DNA of 64,000 nucleotides. It comes from a virus. Taxonomy: Duplodnaviria; Caudoviricetes. The position numbers and the translations under genes are program-made. The DNA is taken from the IMG/VR virus record IMGVR_UViG_3300013105_000022, positions 1 through 64,000 of that record; one strand, 5' to 3'. The notes beneath the pieces were generated by a model. That model was not told where the DNA came from. It saw only the letters and a program-made list of their open reading frames with translations, and did not search any database. Positions 1-13,430 of the stretch are shown piece by piece (position 1 is the stretch's first letter; every line of letters begins with the position of its first letter).

Positions 1-43
1 AGGCAAAGTACATGTGCCAGGTGGGTAGGAGCTTGTACATTAT

Positions 44-120
44 GGTGGTAGAGGCAGAGCGGTTGTTGCAACAGGTTGTGAGCCTGTCCCCTGGCGGGTT
101 CGATTCCCGTCTATCACCCA
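44..120 (+). tRNA. tRNA-His(GTG)
   Basis: Cloverleaf; ACAGG-TTGTGAG-CCTGT anticodon arm, GGTTCGATTCC T loop, extended acceptor. Confidence 0.9.
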
Positions 121-164
121 GAGCGGTTGTAGGTAACGCGGAGACATCCGGTGGAACCTAATTT

Positions 165-237
165 GGCTCTATGATGTAAAGGTAAGCATGTCAGCTTGTC
201 AAGCTGGATGTGGGGGTTCGACTTCCCCCTAGAGTCG
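165..237 (+). tRNA. tRNA-Asp(GTC)
   Basis: TCAGC-TTGTCAA-GCTGG, TTCGACT T loop, GGCTCTA/TAGAGTC acceptor, G73. Confidence 0.9.
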
Positions 238-242
238 CAAAA

Positions 243-295
243 AGCTCTTGAGAAAGAGCTTGACAATACGTCTGGAAGGGCGTATAACTAAGACA
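243..295 (+). promoter_or_regulatory. Promoter of GOLLD/tRNA operon with an inverted repeat abutting the -35
   Basis: AGCTCTT-GAGA-AAGAGCT hairpin, TTGACA 260-265, 17 nt, TATAACT 283-289. Confidence 0.75.
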
Positions 296-1085
296 TGGGG
301 CATGACCCATAAGCATCCGTGAGGGTGTGAAAGAGAGTGTGACAACCTCTCGCCAGGCAACTGGTACCTCATGCAATCTGAGTGATTCACTTATCCGGTG
401 CCAAGCTGGGTAAGCGACATTCGAGTCACCTGAAGCACCCTAGGGCCGACCGGCGAGGGGTGGCCACCTGTTCTCGCAGTGTGGAAAAGGATCATGACAA
501 GAGTGTTGTTCATGCAGAGGGTGAGTTAGTTCGAGGCCTGTCAGCCAAGAGCAATCACCACGAGTCACAAGTATTGGACCGGAGGGTTCAAGAAAATGGG
601 ACAAGAAATGTAAGTAGCCTGACAGCGAACGCATTCGAAGGTGTGTAGTATTCTGAATCTCAAAAGGGTTCGGAGCTACATGAGAAAGCACATCTTCAGT
701 CAAATACCGCATCATTAGCTCATTGGCAGAGCAATTCCCTCTAACGGAATAGGCGGCAGGTTCAATTCCTGCATGTTTATGCAAAACACAAGCGAAAGCC
801 TTTCTCGTCAGGTAACGAAAGTGCCTTAATCCTCAGCACGTAAGTGAACTGAGGCAACTGGAAGCTCGCAAGGCCAAGGTTGTTCATAGGAAAGTAGCAG
901 GAGTTCAGGAGCTTAGCGGCCCCTGTTCGGTTGCAAAATCCGTGGAGTAAGTACCTGATTCTGGGGTGGTGCCCCGTAAAATCCACCAGGCATGACAAGT
1001 ACAGTGGCGACACTGTGGAGAAGTCGGGAACCAATAATCCGGCGAAAGCTTGTTACGATAGGATGTATTCTCAGTCCTCTTCACC
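295..1085 (+). ncRNA. GOLLD RNA (~790 nt) with embedded tRNA
   Basis: No credible ORF, dense hairpins, inside a phage tRNA cluster; GOLLD-like segments recalled by eye (GGTGTGTAGTATTC..CTCAAAAGG..GCACATCTT, GCTCGCAAGG, GGGAACCAATAATCC..GTATTCTCAG). Confidence 0.8.
709..783 (+). tRNA. tRNA with CUA (amber) anticodon inside the GOLLD linker
   Basis: TAGCTCATTGGCAGAGC D arm, ATTCC-CTCTAAC-GGAAT, GCAGG-TTCAATT-CCTGC; acceptor has a 3-nt bulge. Confidence 0.75.
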
Positions 1086-1113
1086 CTCCGGGGCCTCGAA
1101 ACCCCCGGAATTT

Positions 1114-1185
1114 GGTCTCATCGTATAGCGGCTAATACGCTAGGTTCTCAGCCTAGTAACCGGGGTTCGATTCCCCGTGGGATCA
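1114..1185 (+). tRNA. tRNA-Glu(CTC)
   Basis: CTAGG-TTCTCAG-CCTAG; canonical T arm. Confidence 0.92.
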
Positions 1186-1186
1186 C

Positions 1187-1255
1187 GCAAGCGTGTAGTT
1201 TAAGAAAAACACCGAGCAAGGCTCGGAGTTGGGGAAATGTCCCCCACGTGAGCCA
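1187..1255 (+). ncRNA. tRNA-like element with a 3-nt loop in place of the anticodon loop
   Basis: GCGTG/CACGT acceptor, GTTT/AAAC D stem, CCGAGC-AAG-GCTCGG, GGGG/CCCC T stem. Confidence 0.55.
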
Positions 1256-1258
1256 TAT

Positions 1259-1330
1259 GGCCCCATCGTTTAGTGGTTAGGACGCTGGTCTTTCAAGCCG
1301 GTAATGAGGGTTCGATTCCCTCTGGGGTCA
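1259..1330 (+). tRNA. tRNA-Glu(TTC)
   Basis: CTGGT-CTTTCAA-GCCGG; canonical arms. Confidence 0.92.
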
Positions 1331-1404
1331 CGTTGTAGCAACATTCCTCCCACGGATAGCTATTCGGTTCAAATCCGACGCGAGACGGCGATAGGGTCAC
1401 ATAA

Positions 1405-1487
1405 CCTGAGTTATACCGTAGGGGTAGCGGGACTGGCTGTAACCCAGTTGCCATTAGGCTCGGGGAGTTCGACTCTCTCACTCAGGA
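1405..1487 (+). tRNA. tRNA-Tyr(GTA), long variable arm
   Basis: ACTGG-CTGTAAC-CCAGT; CCTGAGT/ACTCAGG acceptor. Confidence 0.9.
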
Positions 1488-1616
1488 CGCAACACAAAAC
1501 AGTTATGAGCTTGCCGCGTAAGCGGTAAGTTCTTGAGGCTTCTGGTCAACGAAAAAGCCTACAGGCTGGCGAACCCAAGCGCTACACCTGAGCACGTGTT
1601 AGTAAACTGCTCATAC

Positions 1617-1690
1617 GGGAGTAGAAGAGCCAAGGATGACAGGGCTGACTGTAAATCAGTTCGTGGTAGGTTCGATTCCTACTGCTCCCA
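1617..1690 (+). tRNA. Atypical tRNA-Tyr(GTA), short variable loop, poor D stem
   Basis: GCTGA-CTGTAAA-TCAGT; GTAGG-TTCGATT-CCTAC; GGGAGTA/TGCTCCC. Confidence 0.7.
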
Positions 1691-1771
1691 CGCATGGCGC
1701 AATATTCGGACGTTGAGGATTAGTGACCTTCAACCATTAGTGAGCGCTGGCAGGGAATCGTCTCAACACTA

Positions 1772-1839
1772 GGGACGAGGCAAATGAGCACTCCGGCCTG
1801 ATAAAGCCGGTGGACTGGGTTGGACTCCCAGACGTGCCA
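1772..1839 (+). pseudogene. Degenerate tRNA-Ile(GAT)-like gene
   Basis: CCGGC-CTGATAAA-GCCGG (8-nt loop), CTGGG-TTGGACT-CCCAG, mismatched acceptor. Confidence 0.5.
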
Positions 1840-1875
1840 CATCGGCAGGTTGGTGTAAGGACCATTTCCCTTTAT

Positions 1876-1948
1876 GGGACTTTGGCGTAGCTGGAGCGCG
1901 CGACCGTCTGAAGAGCGGTAGGACAGGGTTCGATTCCCTGAGGTCCCA
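1876..1948 (+). tRNA. tRNA-Phe(GAA)
   Basis: ACCGT-CTGAAGA-GCGGT; canonical T arm. Confidence 0.9.
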
Positions 1949-2038
1949 CAGTAGGCGCGCTAGGCGTCGAAGCCGGAAACTCACTCAAAGCCCGGACGCA
2001 GGAGGAAGCTTTCGAGACGTTTCTCCACCCTAGTATAT

Positions 2039-2111
2039 GGCTTCGTAGGCAACGGAAGACCACTCTGACTTAGAATCAGTGATGCTGTGGGTTCGAATCC
2101 CACCGGAGCTA
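2039..2111 (+). tRNA. tRNA-Leu(TAG), short variable loop
   Basis: TCTGA-CTTAGAA-TCAGT; GTGGG-TTCGAAT-CCCAC. Confidence 0.85.
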
Positions 2112-2112
2112 C

Positions 2113-2196
2113 GCTCGTTTGGTGAAACAGGTAGACACGCCAGTCTCAGAAGCTGGTGCCCGATAGGGCGTGCGGGTTCGACTCCCGTGATGAGCA
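2113..2196 (+). tRNA. tRNA-Leu(CAG)
   Basis: CCAGT-CTCAGAA-GCTGG; long variable arm. Confidence 0.92.
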
Positions 2197-2287
2197 CAAT
2201 GTTGGGGCAATGCGTACGGCACAATTTGAGACACCGCAGGAGTAGCGACGGACCTCAGCCCAACATCTAGGATTCCTCTGTGAATAC

Positions 2288-2371
2288 GCGCGAGTGATGG
2301 AATAGGTAGTCTTGCCAGAATGAGAGTCTGGTGTCCGAAAGGGCGTGGGGGTTCGAGTCCCCTCTTGCGCA
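2288..2371 (+). tRNA. tRNA-Leu(GAG)
   Basis: CCAGA-ATGAGAG-TCTGG; long variable arm. Confidence 0.9.
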
Positions 2372-2395
2372 CAATGAGACCCCAAGGAGGGCAAT

Positions 2396-2746
2396 ATGGA
2401 ATTCGAACTTTACTCCAGCTATTTCGGAGAGAACGCCCCTCGTGTCATCACTGATGTTGAGTGGGTCGATGAACTTGAGCTTGACAACGCTTCATATCAG
2501 TTCTACATCCTCCTTGTCGTCAAGAGAGAAGACGGGTACTACCTGTCCACTGACTCTGGATGCTCCTGCCCAACGCCGTGGGAGAACCACACGTTCCCGG
2601 AGAGCTTCACCGGTCCTCTGACGGCAGAGCAGGCACGTGAGGAGTCTTCTTCCCTCATCGAGGGAGCACAGGAGACAGCGCGTAACGGCTACTCTGAAGG
2701 TCCCGACGAGTATAGGGCTAAGGCACTGCTCGCCAAGATCGTCTAA
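2396..2746 (+). CDS. Hypothetical phage protein (DSGCSCPTPWE motif)
   Basis: AAGGAGG SD, phage-like codon usage, followed by a terminator. Confidence 0.8.
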   Translation: MEFELYSSYFGENAPRVITDVEWVDELELDNASYQFYILLVVKREDGYYLSTDSGCSCPTPWENHTFPESFTGPLTAEQAREESSSLIEGAQETARNGYSEGPDEYRAKALLAKIV

Positions 2747-2749
2747 CTA

Positions 2750-2788
2750 GAAAACCCCAGGTCAGCACATGATCTGGGGTTTTTCTTT
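2750..2788 (+). terminator. Intrinsic terminator
   Basis: AAAACCCCAGGTCA..TGATCTGGGGTTTTTCTTT. Confidence 0.85.
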
Positions 2789-2864
2789 GCCTGAACGGCC
2801 TTACAGGCGTATACATGAGCTAGACTAGAAGCTGTATAACCAGCCATACCCCAGGGAGAACCTT

Positions 2865-3119
2865 GTGTCAATCCTCAGTGATAGCCTGAAGGACGTACGT
2901 GAGCCAAAGCAGAAGCCGAGCAACTTCAGGAAGTGGCTCGACTCTCTTTCAGAGGAGGATCGTAAGATCGCTCTGGATGCTATGCACGACAAGACCATTC
3001 TGAAGACCCACTTGCAGGAAGCCTTCAAGAGGGCAGGCCTTCAGGTCTCTAAGGACACTCTCAACAGGATCAGAGAGCAACTGCAAGACGGAACTCTCAA
3101 GGACGAGGACATTCGATGA
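2865..3119 (+). CDS. Small hypothetical protein, possibly DNA-binding
   Basis: GTG start with GGAG SD; ATGA overlap with next gene. Confidence 0.7.
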   Translation: MSILSDSLKDVREPKQKPSNFRKWLDSLSEEDRKIALDAMHDKTILKTHLQEAFKRAGLQVSKDTLNRIREQLQDGTLKDEDIR

Positions 3120-4336
3120 GTGAGCTAGGCGAAGACATCCAGAAGGCCAAGGAGAAGGCGCAAGCCGCTATCAAGGCCGATGAGTACTTCATGAAGGATT
3201 CCGAAGGTAACTTCAAGGAAGCCACCCTCATGGCTACAACAGCCTGGGGAGAGGATGATTGGAAGGCCTGGCTTCTTGAGCAGGGTACCAATCCGGAAGA
3301 TGTCACCTTCACCTTTGGAGTAACTTCCAATCCGTCCGGTGGTTACTGGAACAAGCTCCTCAATGTCAAGTACAAGAACAAGAATTTGGACGACGAAGGC
3401 GTGCCTCTGTGGCCTGTCATCCAGCCTTCCACGACCGTCTATAAGCTACGTCCCGTAGTCAAGACTCCGAAGGTCTCCAAGTTCAAGACAGCCGTGATCG
3501 GTGCAGACACTCAGATCGGCTTCGACATGGACGACCAGGGCAACCTGTACCCGTACCATGACGACCAGGCTATGGATGTCTTCCTCCAGGTCGTACAGCT
3601 TGAGGACCCAGACCAGACGATTCTTGCCGGTGACATCCTAGACCTTGCAGAGCAGGGCCGATGGGCACAGGAAGCTCGATTCGCGAACACCACACAGCAT
3701 GCCCTAGAGCGTGGCCGTAGGTTCGCCGCTGAGACCCGAGCCGCTACCAGTGGAGAGATTCACTGGATCGAGGGTAACCACGACAAGCGAATGCAGGGCT
3801 TCATGGAAGCCAACGCGAAGAGCGCTATGGGACTTCGTAAGGCCGGATACCCAGACTCGTGGCCTGTGATGAGTCTCCCGAATCTGATTGGTCTCGATGA
3901 CTTCGATACCACCTACATCGACGCATACCCAGCCGGACAGCACTGGATCACCGACAACCTCCGTGTGATTCATGGCACCAAGAGCCGTAGCAACGGTTCT
4001 ACGGCCTCAGCGTATGCCAACACGACTCCACACCTGTCTACCATCTTTGGACACTCTCACAGGCTTGAGATTCAGTCCAAGACGATCTTCGACAGGGCAG
4101 GCAAGATCAGGACGATGAACGTCAACCCTGGATGCCTGTGTCGTATCGACGGTGCAGTACCTTCCGTGCACGGTGCACGACACCTGGACGGCTCTAAGGC
4201 CACGTTCTACGAGGACTGGCAACAGGGCGTGGCAGTGATCCGCTACCGCGACACCGGCGAGTTCTACGTGGAACTCATCCAGATCGACAACGGCAAAGGC
4301 TTCTACGGTGGCCAAGAGCTAGAGTCACGTGTCTGA
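3116..4336 (+). CDS. Calcineurin-like metallophosphoesterase
   Basis: DTQ, GDILD, GNHD, IHG, GHSH motifs in order. Confidence 0.85.
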   Translation: MSELGEDIQKAKEKAQAAIKADEYFMKDSEGNFKEATLMATTAWGEDDWKAWLLEQGTNPEDVTFTFGVTSNPSGGYWNKLLNVKYKNKNLDDEGVPLWPVIQPSTTVYKLRPVVKTPKVSKFKTAVIGADTQIGFDMDDQGNLYPYHDDQAMDVFLQVVQLEDPDQTILAGDILDLAEQGRWAQEARFANTTQHALERGRRFAAETRAATSGEIHWIEGNHDKRMQGFMEANAKSAMGLRKAGYPDSWPVMSLPNLIGLDDFDTTYIDAYPAGQHWITDNLRVIHGTKSRSNGSTASAYANTTPHLSTIFGHSHRLEIQSKTIFDRAGKIRTMNVNPGCLCRIDGAVPSVHGARHLDGSKATFYEDWQQGVAVIRYRDTGEFYVELIQIDNGKGFYGGQELESRV

Positions 4337-4971
4337 TGAGTGTGATTTCCGTAGAGAGGGCCTTGTGCCCAAAATGCGGCACACTTCAGCCTAGAGACGA
4401 GTGGCCTACCTATCCTGACGGAAAATATAGAAGAACATGTAGAGAGTGCAAGCGCGCCAAGGATAGAGAATACGCGGCTAGAACTGCCGAGAAGAGACGC
4501 AAAGTATCAAGCGCTTGGATCAAGGCACACCCAGAGGTAAACAGGTCTAGGGTGAAAGCGTGGCAAAAGAAAAATCCGGAAAAGGCCAGAGAGACCAGAA
4601 GAGCTTGGTACAAGAATAACCCAGAGAAAGTTCACGCCAGCAATCGCGCCTCCTATCTGAGAAATAAGGACGTACACTTCGCAAAAGCGGCTAGATACAG
4701 AGCCAGGAAGCGGGAGGCCGAGTGCGGTTGCGTAGATAAAAGCTTTCGTCAGACTCTGATTAGAGCATATGGAGCTTCTTGTTTCTACTGCGGGGGTTCT
4801 TATGAGCACACCGACCACTTCGTACCTCTTGCTGGCGGAGGAATGAACTGTATTTCAAATCTAGTTCCATCCTGTGCTAACTGCAACCTGTCCAAGAAGG
4901 CGAAGCAAGTAGAGGACTGGACCGGATGGAACGGCAAGAGTCCGACGCTTGAGTGCCCCAGTAAGCGATAG
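4336..4971 (+). CDS. HNH homing endonuclease
   Basis: CFYCG..DHFVPLAGGG.N...NLVPSCANCNLSK; N-terminal Zn ribbon and basic helices. Confidence 0.9.
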   Translation: MSVISVERALCPKCGTLQPRDEWPTYPDGKYRRTCRECKRAKDREYAARTAEKRRKVSSAWIKAHPEVNRSRVKAWQKKNPEKARETRRAWYKNNPEKVHASNRASYLRNKDVHFAKAARYRARKREAECGCVDKSFRQTLIRAYGASCFYCGGSYEHTDHFVPLAGGGMNCISNLVPSCANCNLSKKAKQVEDWTGWNGKSPTLECPSKR

Positions 4972-4982
4972 TAGGAAGTATC

Positions 4983-5129
4983 ATGGAAGCATCATTCGAT
5001 GAGGAAGTCAACGCCTACTACTTCGGTGACGAAGACACCACAGTAGCGAAGGTCGTAGACCTCGGAAGCCGACACGTCTTCGTGGACGTAGACCATAACG
5101 GAAAGATTGTTGGGGTCGAAGTCCTCTAA
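4983..5129 (+). CDS. DUF2283-like small protein (48 aa)
   Basis: MEASFDEEVNAYYF..VFVDVDHNGKIVGVEVL. Confidence 0.65.
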   Translation: MEASFDEEVNAYYFGDEDTTVAKVVDLGSRHVFVDVDHNGKIVGVEVL

Positions 5130-5168
5130 GGACTTGACATCTGACTCTAGAGGGGCGATAGTAGAGCT

Positions 5169-5471
5169 ATGGAAGCTATCACACAGACAGAACCCGTCGT
5201 CACGGTAACGGACGCGGAGACCATCGAGTTCAGTATCGACCTCCCTGGCGTTGAGGACTATGTGCCTTGCGAGCAGTGCGACTCCACTGTGAAGAACGGT
5301 GTCATCGCATCCACTCGTTCGTACATGTTCTTCTTCTACAAGGACGGCCTCTTCTCCTTCTGCAAGCACCACGGAGAGAAGAACCAGGCCAAGCTCGAAG
5401 AACTGGGCGGAACACTGGTACTGGATACCCGTGATCGCCTCATCGAGAACCGGCTTCAGGGACAACTCTGA
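5169..5471 (+). CDS. Hypothetical Cys/His Zn-binding protein
   Basis: CEQC..FCKHH; leaderless after TTGACA-N17-GATAGT. Confidence 0.75.
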   Translation: MEAITQTEPVVTVTDAETIEFSIDLPGVEDYVPCEQCDSTVKNGVIASTRSYMFFFYKDGLFSFCKHHGEKNQAKLEELGGTLVLDTRDRLIENRLQGQL

Positions 5472-5617
5472 AAAATTTCTGACAGTTTGGGCCTTCCGGC
5501 TCAGATGTATGTTACAGTAGGACACATGAGTACAAATCAGACCATCGCAACGCGCGGAGCCTCGAAGCAGGTATCCGGCGTTAAGAGGCCTGTCTAGATT
5601 CATAAAACTAGACTTCC

Positions 5618-5686
5618 AAGAGCCTCTTCAGAGAAATCTGACAGAGGCTCTTGACATTTACGGGGGAAGCCCGTAAGATTAAGACA
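5618..5686 (+). promoter_or_regulatory. Promoter of second tRNA operon with an inverted repeat at the -35
   Basis: AAGAGCCTCT..AGAGGCTCTT overlapping TTGACA, 17 nt, TAAGATT-AAGAC-A. Confidence 0.7.
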
Positions 5687-5818
5687 TAGCCTCCTTGGGG
5701 GAAGAAATTCCGGACAGGATGAGCACTAGAACTCTGGGTAAAGCGCTACGGCGGCTCCCCGTCAAGTACACAGTGGAATCCGATACGGGACCAGGACGTA
5801 AGAGCCTGGCCCCGGAAT

Positions 5819-5905
5819 GGAGTAGTCGCCTAGAGGCCTATGGCGCTTGTCTGGAAAGCAAGTTGGGTACCCAATCCCTCGCAGGTTCGAATCCTGTCTA
5901 CTCCG
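5819..5905 (+). tRNA. tRNA-Ser(GGA)
   Basis: CTTGT-CTGGAAA-GCAAG; long variable arm; G73. Confidence 0.92.
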
Positions 5906-5908
5906 CAA

Positions 5909-5979
5909 AGGGAAGAGCGTGAAGCATGCTTAAAATCGCCTCTAAAGCGGTTGATACTGGGGTAGCGTCCAGTTTCCCT
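5909..5979 (+). ncRNA. Divergent tRNA-like gene with CUA anticodon
   Basis: AGGGAA/TTCCCT, ATCGC-CTCTAAA-GCGGT, ACTGG-GGTAGCGT-CCAGT (no TTC). Confidence 0.55.
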
Positions 5980-5982
5980 ATA

Positions 5983-6070
5983 TGGAGATGTGGTCGAGAG
6001 GCTTATGGCGTCTGTTTCGAAAGCAGAAGTGGCGTTAAACCCACCGCAGGTTCAAATCCTGTCATCTCCG
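5983..6070 (+). tRNA. tRNA-Ser(CGA)
   Basis: TCTGT-TTCGAAA-GCAGA; long variable arm. Confidence 0.92.
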
Positions 6071-6216
6071 CGTTACCACACGTCGTCTTTGTGCGGCTAG
6101 GGTTGCATCCTTACTGAACCGAATCCTGTGACTTGCTAGATAGGGCCACGGGGAGGAGGGTTTGGGTCCGCGAGACACAAGGGGGTTGCTCTTACCTTTA
6201 TCTAGGTGGTATCTTT

Positions 6217-6299
6217 GGAAGGTAAGCGAATGGAAAGCGCGTTGTTTTGAAAGCAATTATCCGGTAACACGGTTGCAGGTTCGAGTCCTGTACCTTCCG
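6217..6299 (+). tRNA. tRNA-Ser(TGA)
   Basis: GTTGT-TTTGAAA-GCAAT; long variable arm. Confidence 0.88.
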
Positions 6300-6300
6300 C

Positions 6301-6384
6301 GAAACCCACGAGAAATTCCAGTTCGACTCTGGTATAGTCCACCACATGGGCTATCCTGCCGGTGCCAGGACTTGTGGGCGTTTT
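6301..6384 (+). ncRNA. Circularly permuted tRNA-like RNA (YrlA-like topology)
   Basis: CCCACGAG/CTTGTGGG stem enclosing, in order, T arm, loop-closed acceptor, D arm. Confidence 0.7.
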
Positions 6385-6471
6385 GGAGATATGGCCGAGA
6401 GGCTTATGGCGTCACTTTGCTAAAGTGAAGTAGGTTGAAATCTACCGCAGGTTCGAATCCTGTTATCTCCG
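6385..6471 (+). tRNA. tRNA-Ser(GCT)
   Basis: TCACT-TTGCTAA-AGTGA; long variable arm. Confidence 0.92.
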
Positions 6472-6573
6472 CGTTGACCGGTTAGGAGTTTCTAGTAACA
6501 CTTCTCCGGCACAGTGGGCATGATGCTAGATGATGGCCCACACTTGACTTAAGTGGGGTAGCTCCCCTAAAGT

Positions 6574-6628
6574 CGTCCTGGTACTGGTGTACGGTACCTG
6601 TTCCCGTTCGATTCGGGAAGCCAGGGCG
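6574..6628 (+). ncRNA. Mini tRNA-like RNA lacking the anticodon arm
   Basis: CGTCCTGGT/GCCAGGGCG, small D-like hairpin, TTCCCG-TTCGATT-CGGGAA. Confidence 0.55.
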
Positions 6629-6787
6629 CAAACTTTCAAGACTAAGTACTAGAATTGACATTTCTAGTCCCCACTCGGTCGGGGAATCGTGCCGAGGGTG
6701 TTTAGCTGGATCATCGTAAAGAAAAGCGGTCTTATCCTACCAGAACGGGATACGCGAGGGGGGTGACCTGTCATCATCGCCTCTTAT

Positions 6788-6858
6788 GGGTCTAAGGTGT
6801 TACGGTAGCACTGGGCGCTCTTAACGCTCAAGCCAGGGTTCGACTCCCTGTAGACCCA
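6788..6858 (+). tRNA. tRNA-Lys(CTT)
   Basis: GGGCG-CTCTTAA-CGCTC. Confidence 0.88.
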
Positions 6859-7055
6859 CGTATGGGGTGACTCCCATTCCACTCCGGTATGTCCCGGACG
6901 TTTTTGCCTTCTCAGTGTATCGATAACAAAGAGAGCGTTATGTACGTACGAGAAGCGTGCACGTGTAAGTACAGTTGACGATACCAACACCGGGCAGTCC
7001 CTCTCGTATTCATGGGACCACGAAGGGGAGTTCCTAGTCAGTTCTAGCCCTTTAT

Positions 7056-7128
7056 GCCTCCGTAACTCAGCGGCTAGAGTAGCTGACTCTTAATCAGCGA
7101 GTCGTGGGTTCGAATCCCACCGGGGGTA
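7056..7128 (+). tRNA. tRNA-Lys(CTT)
   Basis: GCTGA-CTCTTAA-TCAGC; canonical. Confidence 0.95.
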
Positions 7129-7198
7129 CGGTGTTTGTGAGTAGCACCCATACCGGTAAAACTCATCGCATTCCGTCTGTGCGTAATCAGGCGGGCAT

Positions 7199-7271
7199 GG
7201 GGTATGAGCCATGATGGTGACGGCACCAGTCTTCCAAACTGGTTAGGTGGGTTCGATTCCCGCATACCTCT
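7199..7271 (+). tRNA. tRNA-Gly(TCC)
   Basis: CCAGT-CTTCCAA-ACTGG; U73. Confidence 0.88.
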
Positions 7272-7376
7272 CTCAACGCCGTAGGTTCGATTCCTGAAAT
7301 AGCTCGCTGGTGCGTGTGCGGCGCTGTACCAATGATTTACGCCGAGGGTTGCATTCAAACTAACTCCAGGCCCAAC

Positions 7377-7447
7377 GTCTATATGGTGAAATGGTATCAT
7401 CTCAGCTTGCCAAGCTGAGGGCGCGGGTTCGATTCCCGCTATAGGCT
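7377..7447 (+). tRNA. tRNA-Gly(GCC)
   Basis: TCAGC-TTGCCAA-GCTGA; U73. Confidence 0.9.
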
Positions 7448-7452
7448 CTCGT

Positions 7453-7635
7453 GGATTCAGTAAGTCAACATCTTGAAATGCAGGACGGCGGGGAGCTATT
7501 GGCGTAGCGGTGATCCGGCGAGCAGTTGGTGTTCATGGACATGATAACAAGATGAAGGACGACTGGGGTTTTTCATAGGTGATCCTGCTACCTCCTCCTT
7601 TCGGCCCTGTAGCGGCGTACCTGCTTACTGAATCC
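7453..7635 (+). ncRNA. ~183 nt rod-shaped RNA (6S-like size and shape)
   Basis: GGATTCAGTAAGT/GCTTACTGAATCC closing helix plus nested helices and an internal bubble. Confidence 0.5.
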
Positions 7636-7735
7636 CAATTGTGCCCTAGGGGCGGTGTTGGCCGATACCAACGAGGAATATCCGCGCTTGCGCAGTGAAC
7701 AACCTCAGGAGTCGTAGCACGTCGTAAGGGACTTT

Positions 7736-7807
7736 GCCCCTCTAGTTCTAGTGGTAAAACACCGGTCTTGTAAACCGGCTTCAGGAGTTCGATTCTTCTG
7801 AGGGGCA
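7736..7807 (+). tRNA. tRNA-Thr(TGT)
   Basis: CCGGT-CTTGTAA-ACCGG. Confidence 0.9.
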
Positions 7808-7912
7808 CGCTAGCAAACGGCTGAAAAAGGGATTGTAGTAAGCCAGTCTTCCAAACCAGAATCCCCGAAAGACACAGGCTCGAAAGAGTGCTAACTGTTA
7901 GGGAAGACATAT

Positions 7913-7983
7913 GCCGGATTAGCATAGTGGTAGTGCACCTGTTTCGTAATCAGGTAGCGCGGGTTCGATTCCCGCATTTGGCT
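7913..7983 (+). tRNA. tRNA-Thr(CGT)
   Basis: CCTGT-TTCGTAA-TCAGG. Confidence 0.88.
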
Positions 7984-8126
7984 CAAAGGGTGCAGGCTCA
8001 TATTTGTCTGCTCAATAGAGGATGCTAAATCCGACGCCTGAGGGTAGGAATGCCCGTCTCGCGAGACGAAATCCGTTGGGGTGTATGACCTCAGGAAGGG
8101 CGATAGTAGGTGCCCAATCATGCCAT

Positions 8127-8198
8127 GCCGCTTTAGCTCAGGGGTAGAGCATCTGCATGGTAAGCAGAAGGCCGTGGGTTCGAGACCCACAAGTGGCT
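8127..8198 (+). tRNA. tRNA-Thr(GGT)
   Basis: TCTGC-ATGGTAA-GCAGA. Confidence 0.9.
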
Positions 8199-8305
8199 CA
8201 GGGACGAATGTGACCTCATCACGCCACCCTATAAAGGCAGAACTTGAGGACGTTGAATGGGTTTTGGCTGACCTCTCACGGGCAATACGAGAAGTTGCCC
8301 TCTAT

Positions 8306-8378
8306 GGATGTGTGGCGCAGTGGCTAGCGCACCTGTATGACTCACAGGAGGTCGAGAGTTCGAATCTCTCCACATCTA
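8306..8378 (+). tRNA. tRNA-Val(GAC)
   Basis: CCTGT-ATGACTC-ACAGG. Confidence 0.9.
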
Positions 8379-8438
8379 CGCTTGACATCTGCAAGGATCG
8401 TCCCTAGACTGGTAACAACCAATCAAGAGGAGGGCACA

Positions 8439-8876
8439 ATGCCTTGTAGAGTTGAACTGTCGGAAGCAGAACTGGAAGCCGAGCGTCAGGCACGCTCCAA
8501 CCGCGAAATCGCTAAGGCCCTGAAGCCGGTGCAGGATCGCAATGACGACCTCACACACGAGAACGATCTTCTCCGTGAGACCATCCTGAACGTCGTCAAC
8601 GTCTTGGGAGACGAGGCCAAGAGCCTGATCCCGGACAAGCTCTTGAAGCACATCGAGCAGGATCAGGTAGAGCATCGCAAGGAAGACCTTCGCCGCCTGG
8701 AAGCCACACTGAACGAAAAAGTGGCGGTCCTTTACAAGGGCAAGAACTTCCGTGCAGGAGAGCAGGGTTGGAAGGAGGAGCGCAACGTTCTTTTCGATCA
8801 CATGCACCGCGTTTACACGGCTGATCCCAAGCTCCCGCTTGAGCCTCAACTTGGCTTCGATCCCGACAGCTACTAA
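8439..8876 (+). CDS. Hypothetical coiled-coil protein
   Basis: Own TTGACA/TAGACT promoter and GAGGAGG SD; start MPCRVELS. Confidence 0.8.
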   Translation: MPCRVELSEAELEAERQARSNREIAKALKPVQDRNDDLTHENDLLRETILNVVNVLGDEAKSLIPDKLLKHIEQDQVEHRKEDLRRLEATLNEKVAVLYKGKNFRAGEQGWKEERNVLFDHMHRVYTADPKLPLEPQLGFDPDSY

Positions 8877-8952
8877 GAATTGATACCCGGCAGGGCTTGT
8901 GATGATGTCACCTGTCTGGTATCTTTGGACTAGCTCACCTTACGGGCTATAC

Positions 8953-9022
8953 GGTTCGCGGGGTGGTTTCCTCCCCTGAGTTTTACACACTCGGACGCAC
9001 GGTTCAATTCCGTGGCGAACTA
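8953..9022 (+). tRNA. Atypical tRNA-Val(TAC), 6-bp anticodon stem
   Basis: GGTTCGC/GCGAACT, CTGAGT-TTTACAC-ACTCGG, CACGG-TTCAATT-CCGTG. Confidence 0.7.
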
Positions 9023-9065
9023 CAGTCTTGAATCGGACACTAGACTCTTGGAAGGAGGACCCGTC

Positions 9066-9554
9066 ATGACTGCATACGTAGAGCTTTACAATCAAGGTGC
9101 ATGCCTTGACGACAGCGGTTCCATCAAGGGTCAGCTTCTGAAGAGGATTTCGGTTCAGAAGGCTATGAACATGATGTGGCGCGGTGTCGCCAGGATTCTG
9201 GACGTGGACGAAGGAACCTTCGGACAGTTCGAGAAGCCCCGAGCATTGGAGTTGGTTAGATACGTCTACACCAAGTGGATGTACGAGCGCAAGGGCGAGA
9301 TTCGTCCGACGCGGCGCACCATCCTCCGACGCGACGACTACACATGCACGTACTGTGGCCAGTACGGTGACACGCTTGACCACATCCAGCCCCGCTCGCG
9401 CGGTGGTAAGGACTCGTGGGAGAACCTGATTACCGCTTGCCTCAAGTGCAACAACGTCAAGGACGACAGGACCCCTCAGGAAGCTGGCATGAAGCTCAGG
9501 TTCCAGCCGAGGGTACCTGAGTTCAAGGAAATCTACTCGTGGGGACGAGGCTAA
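9066..9554 (+). CDS. HNH endonuclease
   Basis: RDDYTCTYCG..TLDHIQPRSRGGKDSWENLITACLKCNNVK. Confidence 0.92.
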   Translation: MTAYVELYNQGACLDDSGSIKGQLLKRISVQKAMNMMWRGVARILDVDEGTFGQFEKPRALELVRYVYTKWMYERKGEIRPTRRTILRRDDYTCTYCGQYGDTLDHIQPRSRGGKDSWENLITACLKCNNVKDDRTPQEAGMKLRFQPRVPEFKEIYSWGRG

Positions 9555-9556
9555 AT

Positions 9557-9829
9557 ATGACGTACTACGACAACAAAGAAGCCCTGAAGGGCACTGTTAG
9601 GGAGCTTGCCGCCAAGAGGCTGGGAGCTTCCGACACAGACAAGATCGAGTATGGAACGTACACCTGGGACTCCGGTTTCTGTGAGACGTGTTCGTACACC
9701 GAATACGAGTTCGTCGTTCTCCTGAACGGCGAGGTCGTATACGACTCAAAAGGCAACCAGTACATCGACGGATACGACATCTTCGGGGCATTCCAGGAAT
9801 GGCTCGATGGAGTAGAAGAGAAGTACTGA
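9557..9829 (+). CDS. Hypothetical protein (GFCETC motif)
   Basis: Follows the HNH gene; GAGG SD. Confidence 0.7.
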   Translation: MTYYDNKEALKGTVRELAAKRLGASDTDKIEYGTYTWDSGFCETCSYTEYEFVVLLNGEVVYDSKGNQYIDGYDIFGAFQEWLDGVEEKY

Positions 9830-9958
9830 GAACCCCACAGGACAGCTACTTGTCTCCTGGCCTATAACCGATTTGCGGATAGCGGCGAAGGTAGTCGTTG
9901 GGTATACTGGAACGAGCTAGGTATACAAGTCGGGAGGGTACGTGAATCCCTCCCATAT

Positions 9959-10033
9959 TCCTCTGTAGCGCTCCAGGCGAGTGCGCCACGCTGTTAACGT
10001 GGAGGTAGGTTGGTTCGAGTCCAGCCAGGGGAG
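9959..10033 (+). tRNA. tRNA-Asn(GTT)
   Basis: CCACG-CTGTTAA-CGTGG; G73. Confidence 0.85.
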
Positions 10034-10236
10034 CTACCCGATATACACCGAGCAGTGCCACCACACTGGGCTAACTCGGAACCGATGTACCGCGACGGCG
10101 GAACTGCATCTAGGGCAGGCATACGAAGTGGTGGATTGAAGGATAGCATTACTACGAGGACACGTACGACCTTAGTGGTGGCTCATCCTCTCCGTGGAAG
10201 TCGGGGCGTGCCGTGGCCACGATACAAAGCCGCCTT

Positions 10237-10308
10237 ACCCCTGTAGCTCAGTGGCAGAGCAGGAAGCTGTTAACTTCAAGGTCGTTGGTTCGAATCCAGC
10301 CAGGGGTG
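10237..10308 (+). tRNA. tRNA-Asn(GTT)
   Basis: GGAAG-CTGTTAA-CTTCA; canonical D/T arms. Confidence 0.9.
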
Positions 10309-10373
10309 CTCTACAAACAAAGAAAACTAGAAAACAACTTGACAACCAACCAGAACAGGCGTAAAAATAGATC

Positions 10374-11453
10374 ATGACTTACTACATCAGAGCAGGAGCG
10401 CGGTTCAACGTCGCAGACAAGAACGCGCTGAACCTCCAGGAGAACCTTCCTGTAGGCACTTACACTGTCGGCTGGGACGAGATGAACAGCCGCTTCTTCC
10501 TCTCAATGGTCGCGAACCTGGAAATCTCCGGTAAGGTCTACGGAGACACCAACAAGGTCACCGAGCGCATCTTCACCACGTTCATGGATCGCCCGGCTTC
10601 GACCGGTGTCATGCTCGCGGGTGAGAAGGGTTCAGGTAAGACCCTCCAGGCCAAGAAGCTGAGTCACATCGGCCTCCAGAACAACATCCCGACCATCATC
10701 ATCAACCAGCCGTGGCACGGTGAACTGTTCAACCAGTTCATGCAGACCATCGATCAGCCTACGATCATTCTCTTCGATGAGTTCGAGAAGACGTACGATG
10801 AGCAGAAGTCTCAGGAAGCACTCCTGACTCTCTTCGATGGGGTCTACCCGTCCAAGAAGATGTTCGTCATCACGTGCAACGACTCGTACCGCATCAACCA
10901 GCACTTGAAGAACCGTCCCGGTCGTATCTACTACCGCAAGGACTACAAGGGTCTGGAGCGCGAGTTCATCGAGGAGTACTGCCGTGACAACCTCAAGAAC
11001 CAGGCCAACATGGAGGGCGTCTGCAAGATCGCAGTAGCTTTCTCGGAGTTCAACTTCGACATCCTCAAGGCTATGGTCGAGGAGATGAACCGCTACGACG
11101 AGACGGCTCAGGAGACGATGAGTTTCCTGAACGCTCGCCCTGAGTTCAGCAACATGGCTGACTACGAGGGATTCATCCTCTCTGAGGACAAGAAGATTGC
11201 CGTCACTTGGAGGGGTGCACCGCTGAACGGTAACCCCATCCGCATCTACTTCACCGCTCCCGGTGCCGCTAAGGACTGGGAAGACAGCCTCCTGGGGCTG
11301 GATGAGGACGGAGACGGCTCTGCCGAGTTCCTTGTCTCTGACCTTGTGAAGGTCGATGCTCAGACAGGATCGTTCCTCTTCGTGAACAGCGAGAAGGTCG
11401 AACTTCACCTGACCAAGAAGGTCGAAAAGACCTACAATTACAACGCCTTCTGA
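10374..11453 (+). CDS. AAA+ ATPase
   Basis: Walker A GEKGSGKT, Walker B ILFDEFEK, NRPGRI arginine finger. Confidence 0.9.
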   Translation: MTYYIRAGARFNVADKNALNLQENLPVGTYTVGWDEMNSRFFLSMVANLEISGKVYGDTNKVTERIFTTFMDRPASTGVMLAGEKGSGKTLQAKKLSHIGLQNNIPTIIINQPWHGELFNQFMQTIDQPTIILFDEFEKTYDEQKSQEALLTLFDGVYPSKKMFVITCNDSYRINQHLKNRPGRIYYRKDYKGLEREFIEEYCRDNLKNQANMEGVCKIAVAFSEFNFDILKAMVEEMNRYDETAQETMSFLNARPEFSNMADYEGFILSEDKKIAVTWRGAPLNGNPIRIYFTAPGAAKDWEDSLLGLDEDGDGSAEFLVSDLVKVDAQTGSFLFVNSEKVELHLTKKVEKTYNYNAF

Positions 11454-11638
11454 ACATGATCGTATTCATGCCTTTCTCAAGGACTAACGGATTGCGGGAC
11501 TTCCTGGCTCTGGTCACGAGGTTCATGCTCTAGAATTCCGACAGTCAATCTTCAGTAGACCCGAGTGCTTTACTGATTATGGACGGGAATGCCGGAGGGC
11601 GATAAACTCTCAGGGGTGCGACTGAACAACGCACATAC

Positions 11639-11710
11639 GCCGCTATGGTCCAATGGATACGATACTAGGCTACGAACCTGGGGATTTCAGTTCGATTCTG
11701 AATAGTGGTA
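11639..11710 (+). tRNA. tRNA-Arg(ACG)
   Basis: CTAGG-CTACGAA-CCTGG. Confidence 0.9.
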
Positions 11711-11743
11711 CGTTACCCCTTTCATCTGTGATAAGATGGAAGG

Positions 11744-12142
11744 ATGAACACACGAGTACAAGAATGGCGAGAGTCAAAGAGAAAGCCGTGTCCCGGTGGA
11801 TGCGGAACTACTGTGGCTTACGACACTGTTCTATGCCGATCTTGTCACTCACTAGCTAAGCGTGACCGAGCACTGGATAAGACAGTCGGTGAACTCAAGG
11901 CAACAAGCAAGAGCCTAAGGTGGACCGACCACGTTCGTTACTTTGCTAGAAAGATGCATCAGTTTGCTGAGTGTGAAGTTTGCGGATACGCCAAAATGGT
12001 AGAAGTAGCTCACATCGTTGACGTGGCATCTTTTCCGGACACGGCTACTATTCGAGAAGTAAACGCAAGAGAGAACGTCAGAGGCCTATGCCCCAATCAT
12101 CACTGGGAATTTGACAACGGCGTTCTAAATGAGCCGCTATAG
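11744..12142 (+). CDS. HNH endonuclease
   Basis: CEVCG..EVAHIVDV..N.RGLCPNHHWEFD; stop codon lies inside the next tRNA. Confidence 0.88.
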   Translation: MNTRVQEWRESKRKPCPGGCGTTVAYDTVLCRSCHSLAKRDRALDKTVGELKATSKSLRWTDHVRYFARKMHQFAECEVCGYAKMVEVAHIVDVASFPDTATIREVNARENVRGLCPNHHWEFDNGVLNEPL

Positions 12143-12204
12143 TACAAGGGATAGTGCTTCTGCCTCCTAAGCAGAGAATCCAGGTTCGAGTCCTGGTAGT
12201 GGCG
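12133..12204 (+). tRNA. tRNA-Arg(CCT)
   Basis: TCTGC-CTCCTAA-GCAGA. Confidence 0.9.
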
Positions 12205-12222
12205 CGCTAGAAAGGAACAGAG

Positions 12223-12814
12223 ATGACACCTGAAGAGATTGAGGATGCGGCAACGCAACTCGTAGTGGAGCATCTTGACGAGGGTATCGAATACCTTACG
12301 GTATCTGAAGCACTCTTCGAGGAGCACGAAGAAGTCAGTGAGGAAGACACCAAGGCCGTGTTCGACAAGGCCAACCGTATCCTTACGAAGATCATCGATA
12401 TGTACTTCGAGGATGCCGACTAGTGGACGAATTCGATCACCCACTCTTCCTCCACGGTATGGATGTGGGTGAGTCCATCGGTGAATACAACGCTCAGGCT
12501 GAGGCACAGCGCGCTTACGACATGGGCGAGATTGAGCTTTGGCTCGCATTCTACAAGCCGAAGACCATTTCCGAGTGGGTCGAATGGGAATTGGAACACG
12601 GAAGATCAGGTGATTTCGAGAAAAGGTGGGCAAGATGACACAAACAATTCGGCTTACCTCTCAGGAGACCGGCGAGTTGATTGACGAATTCGAGGTAGAG
12701 GACGATGAGTTCGCTATCTGGGAAAGAGCGGCAAGCAAGATGGGTCTCACGGTCGAGGAATTCCTTGTCAAGGCAATCCACGACTTCGCAGACAATTACA
12801 AGCCCAAGAAGTAA
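12223..12814 (+). CDS. Three coupled small acidic hypothetical genes (12223-12423, 12423-12638, 12635-12814)
   Basis: Overlapping stop/start codons, SD before the first. Confidence 0.7.
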
Positions 12815-12844
12815 ACCCCCACTGAGCCGGGGTAAAGGCTCTGA

Positions 12845-12917
12845 TCCCCGGTAGTTTATGTTGGTAAAACGCCTGACTCTGAATCAGGAATGCTTGGATC
12901 GTCGCCAGGCTGGGGAG
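12845..12917 (+). tRNA. tRNA-Gln(CTG) with aberrant T loop
   Basis: CCTGA-CTCTGAA-TCAGG; T loop ATCGTCG. Confidence 0.8.
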
Positions 12918-12983
12918 CGAGGTAGCTATTTCACCTACGACAAATGGTCGCGAACTAGATCGTAGTGCGGTAGTTACCCACAT

Positions 12984-13054
12984 ACCGGAGTGGTGTAAAG
13001 GTAGCACAAGAGACTTTGACCCTCTTAGACTTGGTTCGATACCAGGCTCCGGTG
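12984..13054 (+). tRNA. tRNA-Gln(TTG)
   Basis: AGAGA-CTTTGAC-CCTCT; ACCGGAG/CTCCGGT acceptor. Confidence 0.85.
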
Positions 13055-13205
13055 CAATGCGAGGCCCACCCGCCATATGCAAATGCTAAGTGAGTGGCGC
13101 TCTGGGAGTTGCAACCCTCGCAGAAAGTCCTCAGGTAAGCAAGGCCAAATGTAATTACGACCTGAGGCAAGTTTTCGATAGTAGTCAGTGACTGAAGGAG
13201 TCATC

Positions 13206-13373: not shown

Positions 13374-13430
13374 AGGATAGAGCACATCCCTCCGAAGGAT
13401 GAGACACGGGTTCGAGTCCCGTCGAGGGTA
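13359..13430 (+). tRNA. tRNA-Arg(CCG)
   Basis: CATCC-CTCCGAA-GGATG. Confidence 0.92.

What the first reader, a model, noticed from the sequence alone, without database searches (positions are those of the whole stretch)
295..1085. GOLLD RNA in an actinophage, with its own promoter and a tRNA cargo
Seen: ~790 nt ORF-free structured block with GOLLD-like 5' and 3' halves and a tRNA at 709-783 between them. Known: GOLLD RNAs occur in phage tRNA clusters, can carry a tRNA in the variable linker, and are reported to form oligomeric cages; function is unknown. Inference: the cage may shield or stage its cargo.
Basis: partly seen in the sequence, partly recalled or inferred. Interest (0 to 1): 0.7.

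Follow-up and report, generated by a model that had tools for sequence, protein, structure and literature searches.

The report
GOLLD RNA with tRNA-shaped insert
This is a full-length copy of the known giant phage RNA GOLLD, in the tRNA island of a probable Microbacterium phage; its internal "tRNA" looks like a tRNA-shaped fixture, not a working tRNA, so it is an ordinary new member of a known family with one odd detail.

Summary
Rfam's GOLLD model (RF02032) matches 636-1077 over its whole length at 213.9 bits (cut-off 150). That model covers only the 3' region.

The 5' part (296-635) is homologous to the 5' domains of about 20 other actinobacterial-type GOLLDs. Its fold has strong compensatory covariation: 96% of cells paired against about 42% in slid controls.

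A consensus promoter, TTGACA-17-TATAAC (260-288), ends 7-8 nt before the first conserved base. This is sequence evidence only.

The "tRNA" (709-783) lies in the variable linker, which faces the cage interior in the solved GOLLD structure.
- It scores 47 bits on the tRNA model, but only for positions 5-66, and ARAGORN rejects it.
- Its acceptor stem pairs 4 of 7, or 7 bp with a 3-nt bulge.
- Its anticodon is CUA (amber).

In 13 related GOLLDs the cloverleaf core is kept by compensatory changes, yet the set of 13 for which an anticodon could be read shows 9 different anticodons. None of the 14 inserts has a perfect acceptor stem, against 40 of 44 of this phage's real tRNAs. I read it as a tRNA-shaped module kept in cis, not releasable cargo.

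GOLLD in actinobacterial tRNA arrays, embedded (pseudo-)tRNAs and the cage-storage idea are all in print. Other windows of this scan have also noted tRNA-shaped GOLLD linkers.

The parts
260..288 (+). Promoter-like site: -35 TTGACA (260-265), 17-nt spacer, -10 TATAAC (283-288). The start of transcription is inferred at about 293-296.
   Evidence: Read from the sequence. The tool's scanner missed it because it requires T at the last -10 position. The exact pair TTGACA-N17-TATAAC occurs 3 times on the + strand of the genome (260, 133672, 134953) and once on the - strand. The looser TTGACA-N17-TAnnn[TC] occurs 20 times on the + strand against 0.65 in shuffles. Conserved GOLLD sequence starts 8 nt after the -10.
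296..635 (+). GOLLD 5' domain of the actinobacterial type; it is not covered by the Rfam model.
   Evidence: nhmmer homology to L131/L071 (E 3e-18) and to cluster M mycobacteriophages and Mycobacterium prophages. Alignments A1 and A2. 96.2% of cells paired, 32 of 65 pairs with compensatory change, 0 of 500 shuffles as good, slid controls 31-43%.
636..698 (+). First hairpin of the GOLLD 3' region (Rfam model positions 1-63), with the invariant CAAAAG loop.
   Evidence: CM alignment. Helices 11-13. Invariant columns.
699..789 (+). Variable linker (called J13/15 in PMC12990946), which holds the tRNA-like insert.
   Evidence: Unpaired variable region of the CM alignment. The corresponding linker of env-38 (nt 497-538) is disordered and faces the cage interior.
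709..783 (+). tRNA-shaped module. It has a D arm, an anticodon arm with loop CUCUAAC (anticodon CUA at 741-743), a T arm with loop UUCAAUU, and an acceptor stem of 4/7 contiguous pairs or 7 bp with a UUU bulge (776-778).
   Evidence: Rfam tRNA 47.4 bits over model positions 5-66. Not called by ARAGORN. Acceptor count. Cloverleaf core kept across 14 relatives, 99.1% paired.
790..1077 (+). Conserved GOLLD 3' core, including the pseudoknot between about 808-815 and about 951-958.
   Evidence: CM alignment to RF02032, model positions about 125-416. nhmmer profile match. Complementary segments shown.
1088..1108 (+). G+C-rich hairpin (CCGGGG, 9-nt loop, CCCCGG) followed by AAUUU. It abuts tRNA-Glu, which starts at 1114. 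It may be a 3' end-protecting hairpin or a weak terminator; RNase P cleavage at 1113/1114 is the other likely source of the 3' end.
   Evidence: Read from the sequence. Not called as a terminator by the scan. tRNA-Glu at 1114-1186. In relatives a tRNA follows the GOLLD within about 10-20 nt.
165..238 (+). Upstream flanking tRNA-Asp(GUC).
1114..1186 (+). Downstream flanking tRNA-Glu(CUC), the first of the tRNAs that may be co-transcribed with the GOLLD.
   Evidence: The next promoter-like site on the + strand is at 2481.

Best explanation
296-1077 is a complete GOLLD RNA gene of about 780 nt. It lies in the 44-gene tRNA island of a 136.5-kb, probably Microbacterium-infecting, phage.

Shown here:
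- membership of the Rfam family;
- a conserved, covarying 5' domain shared with mycobacteriophage and prophage GOLLDs;
- a consensus sigma-70/SigA-type promoter sequence ending 7-8 nt before the first conserved base;
- a tRNA-shaped insert in the variable linker.

Inferred:
- The RNA starts at about 295 from its own promoter (about 80% likely). It probably heads a transcript that runs on into tRNA-Glu, tRNA-Glu, tRNA-Tyr and further tRNAs.
- Its 3' end is set by RNase P cutting at the 5' end of tRNA-Glu (1113/1114), by the 1088-1108 hairpin, or by both.
- By homology with the solved env-38 structure, it folds into separate 5' and 3' domains and assembles into a closed RNA-only cage with the linker, and so the tRNA-shaped module, inside. 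This was not tested here.
- The module stays part of the RNA (about 65-70% likely). Its imperfect acceptor end makes it a poor substrate for tRNA end-processing and charging, and its anticodon is free to drift.
- My committed guess for its role: it gives the cage interior a tRNA-shaped surface that binds something recognising tRNA shape rather than an anticodon, such as a tRNA-processing or tRNA-cleaving enzyme or a ribosome site. It is an add-on to a core GOLLD function that does not need it, because most GOLLDs sampled, including this one's nearest relatives, lack it. That role is inference only.
For: Family membership: 213.9 bits against a cut-off of 150, full model length.

5' domain: homology from position 296. 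Covariation: 96.2% paired, 32 of 65 pairs with compensatory change, 0 of 500 shuffles as good, slid controls 31-43%.

Promoter:
- TTGACA-17-TATAAC, the same hexamer pair as two other + strand sites in the tRNA-island region.
- 20 such sites on the + strand against 0.65 expected.
- -10-like hexamers at the same distance in three other GOLLD lineages.

Linker position: the linker of the solved GOLLD cage faces the interior (PMC12286853).

Module retained in cis rather than released:
- The tRNA model matches only positions 5-66, and ARAGORN rejects it.
- Acceptor stem 4/7, against 7/7 in 40 of 44 of the phage's own tRNAs. Among 14 linker modules, none is 7/7: seven are 6/7, three are 5/7, one is 4/7 and three have no 3' acceptor strand.
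- The D, anticodon and T stems and the inner acceptor pairs are 99.1% paired, with 16 of 17 pairs showing compensatory change.
- There are 9 different anticodon triplets in 13 sequences, several in loops that break tRNA rules (G33, C33, 8-nt loops).

Published support: a Northern blot found no separate pseudo-tRNA from the GOLLD of a Mycobacterium species (Behra 2019, PMC6582537).

Dispensability: about 100 aquatic-type GOLLDs have 47-83-nt linkers with no tRNA found by ARAGORN. The L131/L071/L050 lineage inside the actinobacterial-type clade also lacks it.
Against:
- The covariation in the tRNA-like module could partly reflect repeated capture of different tRNAs, or gene conversion from them, because all tRNAs share a cloverleaf. 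Selection on one inherited insert is not the only explanation.
- Seven relatives have 6/7 acceptor stems and match the full tRNA model at 47-62 bits. Release cannot be excluded for those. The literature calls one Mycolicibacterium insert a tRNA-Phe (PMC12990946).
- A 7-bp acceptor stem with a 3-nt bulge can be drawn in this window and might still be recognised.
- Cage formation by the actinobacterial type, whose 5' domain has no detectable sequence similarity to the aquatic type, is an extrapolation.
- The proposed binding role has no direct evidence.
Confidence: 0.72

Rival explanations
1. The linker element is a real, releasable tRNA: an amber suppressor. It is stored inside the cage and freed by RNase P and RNase Z when the cage opens. 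This is the 'inhibited storage' or staged-cargo idea.
For: - The D and T loops are canonical. The 7-nt anticodon loop has U33 and A37, and the anticodon is CUA.
- It scores 47.4 bits on the tRNA model.
- A 7-bp acceptor stem with A73 can be drawn if UUU 776-778 bulges out.
- Some relatives match the full tRNA model.
- The idea is in print.
Against: - ARAGORN rejects it, even relaxed.
- The acceptor stem is 4/7 contiguous, and positions 1-2 are unpaired or mismatched in all 14 modules.
- The anticodon is not conserved: 9 triplets in 13 sequences.
- TAG is an ordinary stop in 36 of 170 crude gene calls. Coding density is 84% under the standard code. Four of the six long in-frame extensions after TAG have a start codon within the first four codons, and the three with the clearest Shine-Dalgarno-like context look like the next gene.
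- It has no close paralogue among the phage's own tRNAs.
- A Northern blot for the Mycobacterium counterpart found no separate species.
Confidence: 0.06
2. The insert is an evolutionary leftover. A tRNA gene from the surrounding array was captured in a linker that tolerates insertions, and it is slowly decaying without a function of its own.
For: - The states are graded: 6/7, 5/7, a bulged stem, no 3' acceptor strand, a remnant of the anticodon arm only (L143), a degenerate form (L145), and absent.
- Anticodons drift, and several anticodon loops break tRNA rules.
- GOLLDs sit in recombining tRNA arrays.
- Most GOLLDs sampled have no insert.
Against: - 99.1% of cells in the four core helices remain paired, and 16 of 17 pairs show compensatory change. 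That is more order than neutral decay predicts.
- On the core tree, the insert appears to predate the split between this phage, the mycobacterial copies and the basal L110/L077 lineage. That tree has no support values and an arbitrary root.
Confidence: 0.22
3. GOLLD here has no promoter of its own. It is simply cut out of a long tRNA-array precursor by tRNA-processing enzymes, and the 260-288 match is incidental.
For: - All tRNAs and the GOLLD are on the same strand.
- In many relatives the conserved 5' end lies 3-10 nt after a tRNA or tRNA-like piece, with no promoter-like site.
- A tRNA follows closely in nearly all.
Against: - The site matches 11 of 12 consensus positions with an ideal 17-nt spacer.
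- The identical hexamer pair heads two other units in the same region.
- This promoter class is about 30-fold enriched on the + strand.
- tRNA-Asp ends 58 nt upstream of the first conserved base, not 3-10 nt as in the processed type.
Confidence: 0.15

Closest known systems
GOLLD RNA (Rfam RF02032; Weinberg et al. 2009, recalled from memory because the paper could not be opened here; cryo-EM of env-38 in Kretsch et al. 2025, PMC12286853)
   Same: Full-length match to the family model above the curated cut-off. About 800 nt, with a two-domain layout. A variable linker follows the first hairpin of the 3' region. The pseudoknot is kept. It lies in a phage next to tRNAs.
   Different: The 5' domain has no detectable sequence similarity to the aquatic type that was solved. 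The linker is 91 nt and holds a tRNA-shaped fold, against 47-83 nt without one in about 100 aquatic copies. Assembly into a cage was not tested.
GOLLD of Mycobacterium tRNA arrays and cluster M mycobacteriophages (Behra 2019, PMC6582537; Morgado 2020, RNA Biol 17:1001, not held here; Rey and Estes)
   Same: Same clade in the core tree. The 5' domain is homologous with covariation. The tRNA-like insert is at the same spot and shares D-arm and T-arm sequence. It is embedded in a large tRNA array.
   Different: - Probable Microbacterium phage rather than Mycobacterium.
- Full -35/-10 promoter instead of a tRNA-like piece directly upstream.
- Amber CUA anticodon and a 3-nt acceptor bulge.
- No tmRNA was found in this window, whereas the cluster M loci have one.
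   Same: A tRNA-shaped fold kept by selection while decoding features are lost, in phage or mycobacterial settings.
   Different: Ordinary (not permuted) order of arms, embedded in a giant RNA. No Rfam match other than tRNA and GOLLD. No Ro-like partner was examined.

Membership tests
GOLLD RNA (RF02032) | Covariance-model score at or above the curated gathering score (150 bits) over the whole model | tested here: met
   213.9 bits, model positions 1-416 of 416, E 4e-59.
GOLLD RNA (RF02032) | Conserved 3'-region helices and the long-range pseudoknot | tested here: met
   The CM alignment shows almost all consensus helices formed. In the pseudoknot, 8 of 10 pairs are standard, and the complementary segments are at about 808-815 and 951-958.
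GOLLD RNA (RF02032) | Large (about 800 nt) with a structured but less conserved 5' domain | tested here: met
   296-635 is homologous to the 5' domains of 20 actinobacterial-type GOLLDs. 96.2% paired, 32 pairs with compensatory change.
GOLLD RNA (RF02032) | Phage or prophage location next to tRNA genes | tested here: met
   Virus record of 136.5 kb. tRNA-Asp lies 58 nt upstream and tRNA-Glu 37 nt downstream. There are 44 ARAGORN tRNAs in the genome.
GOLLD RNA (RF02032) | Assembly into a homo-oligomeric cage | not testable with these tools
   Known only for env-38 (14-mer) and a Streptococcus 3' domain (8- to 12-mers).
GOLLD RNA (RF02032) | Expressed as a stable RNA during phage growth | not testable with these tools
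tRNA (RF00005), functional gene | Covariance-model score above the gathering score | tested here: met
   47.4 bits against 29, but a local match to model positions 5-66 only.
tRNA (RF00005), functional gene | Continuous 7-bp acceptor stem | tested here: not met
   4 of 7 pairs in the contiguous register; 7 bp only with a 3-nt bulge. 40 of 44 of the phage's ARAGORN tRNAs have 7/7.
tRNA (RF00005), functional gene | Called by a dedicated tRNA finder | tested here: not met
   ARAGORN finds nothing at 691-800, even at a relaxed threshold.
tRNA (RF00005), functional gene | Canonical anticodon loop (7 nt, U33, purine 37) and elbow motifs (GG in the D loop, UUCRANY in the T loop) | tested here: met
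   Anticodon loop CUCUAAC, D loop AUUGGCA, T loop UUCAAUU.
tRNA (RF00005), functional gene | Processing to about 75 nt and aminoacylation | not testable with these tools
   A Northern blot of the Mycobacterium counterpart was negative (PMC6582537).
Suppressor tRNA used for stop-codon recoding | Genes that need TAG to be read as an amino acid | tested here: not met
   TAG ends 36 of 170 crude gene calls, and coding density is 84% under code 11. Four of the six long open extensions after TAG have a start codon within the first four codons.

The most novel reading that the evidence does not exclude
The linker module is a deliberately non-decoding tRNA mimic, held in many copies inside the GOLLD cage. 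It acts as bait or a decoy for a factor that recognises tRNA shape, for example a host tRNA-cleaving defence nuclease, RNase P or a ribosomal site. The imperfect acceptor end is selected so that the mimic is never cut out. That would give GOLLD its first testable function in actinophages.
Probability: 0.18. Interest if true: 0.7.

Novelty: new member of a known kind. Interest (0 to 1): 0.33.

Why it matters
GOLLD is among the largest bacterial and phage non-coding RNAs. It has a solved cage structure and still no known function.

This copy adds a probable Microbacterium phage host and a clean promoter-to-tRNA transcription unit that would be easy to clone.

The comparison across 14 linker modules bears on a published hypothesis. 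The tRNA shape is kept, the anticodon is free, and the acceptor end is never perfect. If the embedded tRNAs are fixtures rather than stored cargo, experiments should look for factors that bind tRNA shape rather than for release of a usable tRNA.

Taken alone, the locus is an expected member of a described family.

Tried and rejected
- **Rfam at a permissive threshold on 200-1150:** nothing besides GOLLD and tRNA. One chance-level plastid hit, E = 9.
- **Promoter scanner:** found none, because it demands T at -10 position 6. The site was confirmed by direct pattern counts instead.
- **blastn of the locus against 50,697 phage records:** matched only the first hairpin and the start of the tRNA-like element in cluster M mycobacteriophages, plus a 59-nt tRNA match in an Acinetobacter phage.
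- **'All linker tRNAs are truncated at the acceptor':** I first thought so. Seven relatives match the full tRNA model with 6/7 stems, so the claim became 'none is perfect'.
- **A codon-like partner for the anticodon elsewhere in GOLLD (T-box-style specifier):** no alignment column pairs with the anticodon better than 7 of 13, which is chance level.
- **Amber read-through targets:** none found.
- **Own-genome paralogue of the tRNA-like element:** none close; the best is 51 of 75 identities.
- **Folding the linker alone:** the D and T arms form but the acceptor stem does not; z = -1.3, uninformative.
- **Widening the sample through Mycobacteriaceae genomes:** GOLLD found in only 2 of 151 sampled, so no gain.
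- **Microbacterium phage Magritte, a distant relative:** no GOLLD found.
- **Papers not held:** Morgado 2020 and Weinberg 2009.
- **One script returned unrun:** I redid the step by reference.

Full report
**What is there**

The window is the first 64 kb of a 136,515-bp virus record. Rfam's GOLLD model RF02032 matches 636-1077 on the + strand at 213.9 bits. The curated cut-off is 150, the E-value is 4e-59 and all 416 model positions align. This is the only non-tRNA Rfam family found in the window.

The locus lies inside a one-stranded tRNA island. ARAGORN finds 38 tRNAs at 45-18101 and six more at the far end of the record, covering all 20 amino acids. tRNA-Asp ends at 238 and tRNA-Glu starts at 1114.

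**Host**

One window protein matches 93 phage records, all Microbacterium phages. The sliding-clamp-like protein matches only Microbacterium phage Magritte, at 39% identity. 'Actinophage' is therefore well supported, though the host is inferred.

**The 5' half**

RF02032 covers only the 3' region: one hairpin, the variable linker and the conserved core. I checked the 5' half differently.

- I fetched GOLLD loci by short conserved patterns from viral and genome collections.
- A profile search with 239-640 found significant matches in 20 loci (18 after removing duplicates): two jumbo-phage contigs, cluster M mycobacteriophages such as Rey, Estes and Reindeer, Mycobacterium prophage-like contigs and an Actinomycetota MAG.
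- Similarity begins at window position 296-297.
- No aquatic-type GOLLD matched, so this is a distinct 5' domain type.
- On an 18-sequence alignment, RNAalifold predicts 65 pairs, 32 of them with compensatory changes.
- Counted independently, 96.2% of cells are paired against 31-43% when partners are slid by 1-3 columns. None of 500 shuffles reaches the observed values.

The 5' half is thus a real, conserved RNA domain. The mechanical ORFs in the block (88 and 114 aa) have no Pfam or PHROGs match.

**Ends of the RNA**

TTGACA (260-265), a 17-nt spacer and TATAAC (283-288) lie just upstream, and the first conserved base is 8 nt after the -10 hexamer.

- The scan tool missed the site only because it requires T at the last position.
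- The identical hexamer pair occurs at 133672 and 134953 on the same strand, both near the other end of the tRNA island.
- The class TTGACA-N17-TAnnn[TC] occurs 20 times on the + strand against 0.65 in shuffles.
- Three other GOLLD lineages have -10-like hexamers at the same distance. Many others instead have a tRNA or tRNA-like piece 3-10 nt upstream.

There seem to be two ways of making the 5' end in this family, and this copy uses a promoter. I put that at about 80% without RNA data.

Downstream, a 6-bp G+C hairpin (1088-1108) followed by AAUUU abuts tRNA-Glu. The 3' end is probably made by RNase P at 1113/1114, by the hairpin, or by both. The next promoter-like site is at 2481, so GOLLD probably heads a GOLLD-plus-tRNA transcript.

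**The 'tRNA'**

Rfam's tRNA model matches 713-775 at 47.4 bits, but only model positions 5-66. ARAGORN does not call it, even relaxed. Read directly, it has:

- a D arm (GCUC/GAGC, loop AUUGGCA);
- an anticodon arm (AUUCC/GGAAU, loop CUCUAAC, so anticodon CUA, amber);
- a T arm (GCAGG/CCUGC, loop UUCAAUU);
- an acceptor stem that pairs 4 of 7 contiguously, or 7 bp if UUU 776-778 bulges out.

Amber suppression has no visible use in this phage. TAG ends 36 of 170 crude gene calls and coding density is 84% under the standard code. Of the six long open extensions after a TAG, four have an in-frame start within the first four codons, and the three clearest look like the next gene with its own ribosome-binding site.

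**Comparison across relatives**

- In about 100 aquatic-type GOLLDs the linker is 47-83 nt with no tRNA found by ARAGORN. This sample was fetched by one 3'-core pattern and capped, so it is not unbiased.
- In the actinobacterial-type clade, which is monophyletic in a FastTree of 279 core columns (no support values, arbitrary root), a tRNA-shaped insert sits at the same place in most members, including the basal L110/L077. It shares D-arm and T-arm sequence with the window's copy.
- It is absent from L131/L071/L050 and reduced to remnants in L143 and L145.
- Across 14 inserts, the D, anticodon and T stems and the three inner acceptor pairs are 99.1% paired. 16 of 17 pairs show compensatory change, against 35-55% paired in slid controls.
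- The anticodon differs in nearly every lineage, with 9 triplets in 13 sequences. Some loops have G33, C33 or 8 nt.
- No insert has a perfect acceptor stem: seven are 6/7, three are 5/7, the window's is 4/7 and three lack the 3' strand. By contrast, 40 of 44 of the phage's own tRNAs are 7/7.
- No other GOLLD column covaries with the anticodon.

A caveat applies. Because all tRNAs share a cloverleaf, repeated capture of different tRNAs, or gene conversion from them, would also look like covariation.

Behra et al. (PMC6582537) called the Mycobacterium counterpart a pseudo-tRNA and saw no separate transcript by Northern blot.

**How it most likely works**

- Shown: family membership, conserved two-domain fold, promoter sequence, and a tRNA-shaped insert with a defective acceptor end.
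- From the literature: GOLLD env-38 forms a 14-mer cage whose disordered linker, at the same position in the secondary structure, faces the interior (PMC12286853).
- Inferred: this RNA does the same, and the insert stays covalently inside because its end is a poor substrate for tRNA-end processing. The insert offers a tRNA-shaped surface, not a decoding function.
- It is an accessory, since the core family does without it.

Rivals, with rough odds:

| Reading | Odds |
|---|---|
| Releasable amber suppressor | about 6% |
| Decaying leftover with no function | about 22% |
| No promoter of its own (this concerns only the 5' end) | about 15% |

**Comparison with what is known, and novelty**

All of the following are already published:

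- GOLLD in phages next to tRNAs;
- GOLLD in Mycobacterium tRNA arrays and mycobacteriophages;
- (pseudo-)tRNAs embedded in the J13/15 linker;
- the idea that the cage stores or exposes the linked tRNA.

No functional study appeared in a 2025-2026 literature search.

New here are the probable Microbacterium-phage setting, the clean promoter, and the comparative argument that linker tRNAs of this clade are shape-conserved but not decoding-competent. This is a new member of a known kind, of modest interest.

Noticed in passing
window 1-119 and G000 136171-136289: The first 119 nt of the record, including tRNA-His at 45-119, recur exactly near the far end of the record, and the sequences then diverge. 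This is a short direct repeat near both ends, not a clean terminal overlap. The tRNA island therefore probably continues across the record ends (Leu, Trp, Met, Pro, Pro, His | His, Asp, GOLLD ...).
   Followed up: partly
L071 and L050 (IMGVR_UViG_3300045988_179014, 345 kb); L131 (189-kb contig of the same sample): One jumbo-phage contig carries two GOLLD copies. L131 and L071 are this window's closest relatives in the 5' domain (L050 matches only weakly), and all three have short linkers without any tRNA-like insert.
   Followed up: partly
L002 (Estes) 2392-2508; L003 (Rey) 2365-2508: The small 'hypothetical protein' genes annotated in cluster M mycobacteriophages (Estes gene 105, Rey gene 107) lie inside the covarying GOLLD 5' domain and are probably spurious. 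The linker inserts are annotated there as tRNA-Leu(tag) and tRNA-Ser, although they have class I bodies and 5/7 acceptor stems.
   Followed up: partly
L003 about 2110-2157, L002, L007, L136, L124 and L050, just upstream of the GOLLD 5' end: In many relatives the conserved GOLLD 5' end is preceded within 3-10 nt by a tRNA 3' end or a partial tRNA-like piece instead of a promoter. This suggests the 5' end is made by tRNA-processing enzymes.
   Followed up: partly
window 243-262 and about 5622-5650: A perfect hairpin directly abuts or overlaps the -35 TTGACA of two promoter-like sites in the tRNA island (260 and 5651). This could be a terminator-then-promoter arrangement between transcription units.
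   Followed up: no
about 100 aquatic-type GOLLD loci (L008-L122): About a fifth (some 20) are followed 12-22 nt downstream by tRNA-Met(CAU). This fits a 3' end set by RNase P at the next tRNA.
   Followed up: no
window 19000-45000, + strand: There is a dense series of TTGACA-N17/18-TAnnnT sites, several followed by a shared 'ggtactaccaaccaa...aggagg' leader. This looks like a family of early promoters with a common 5' UTR.
   Followed up: no
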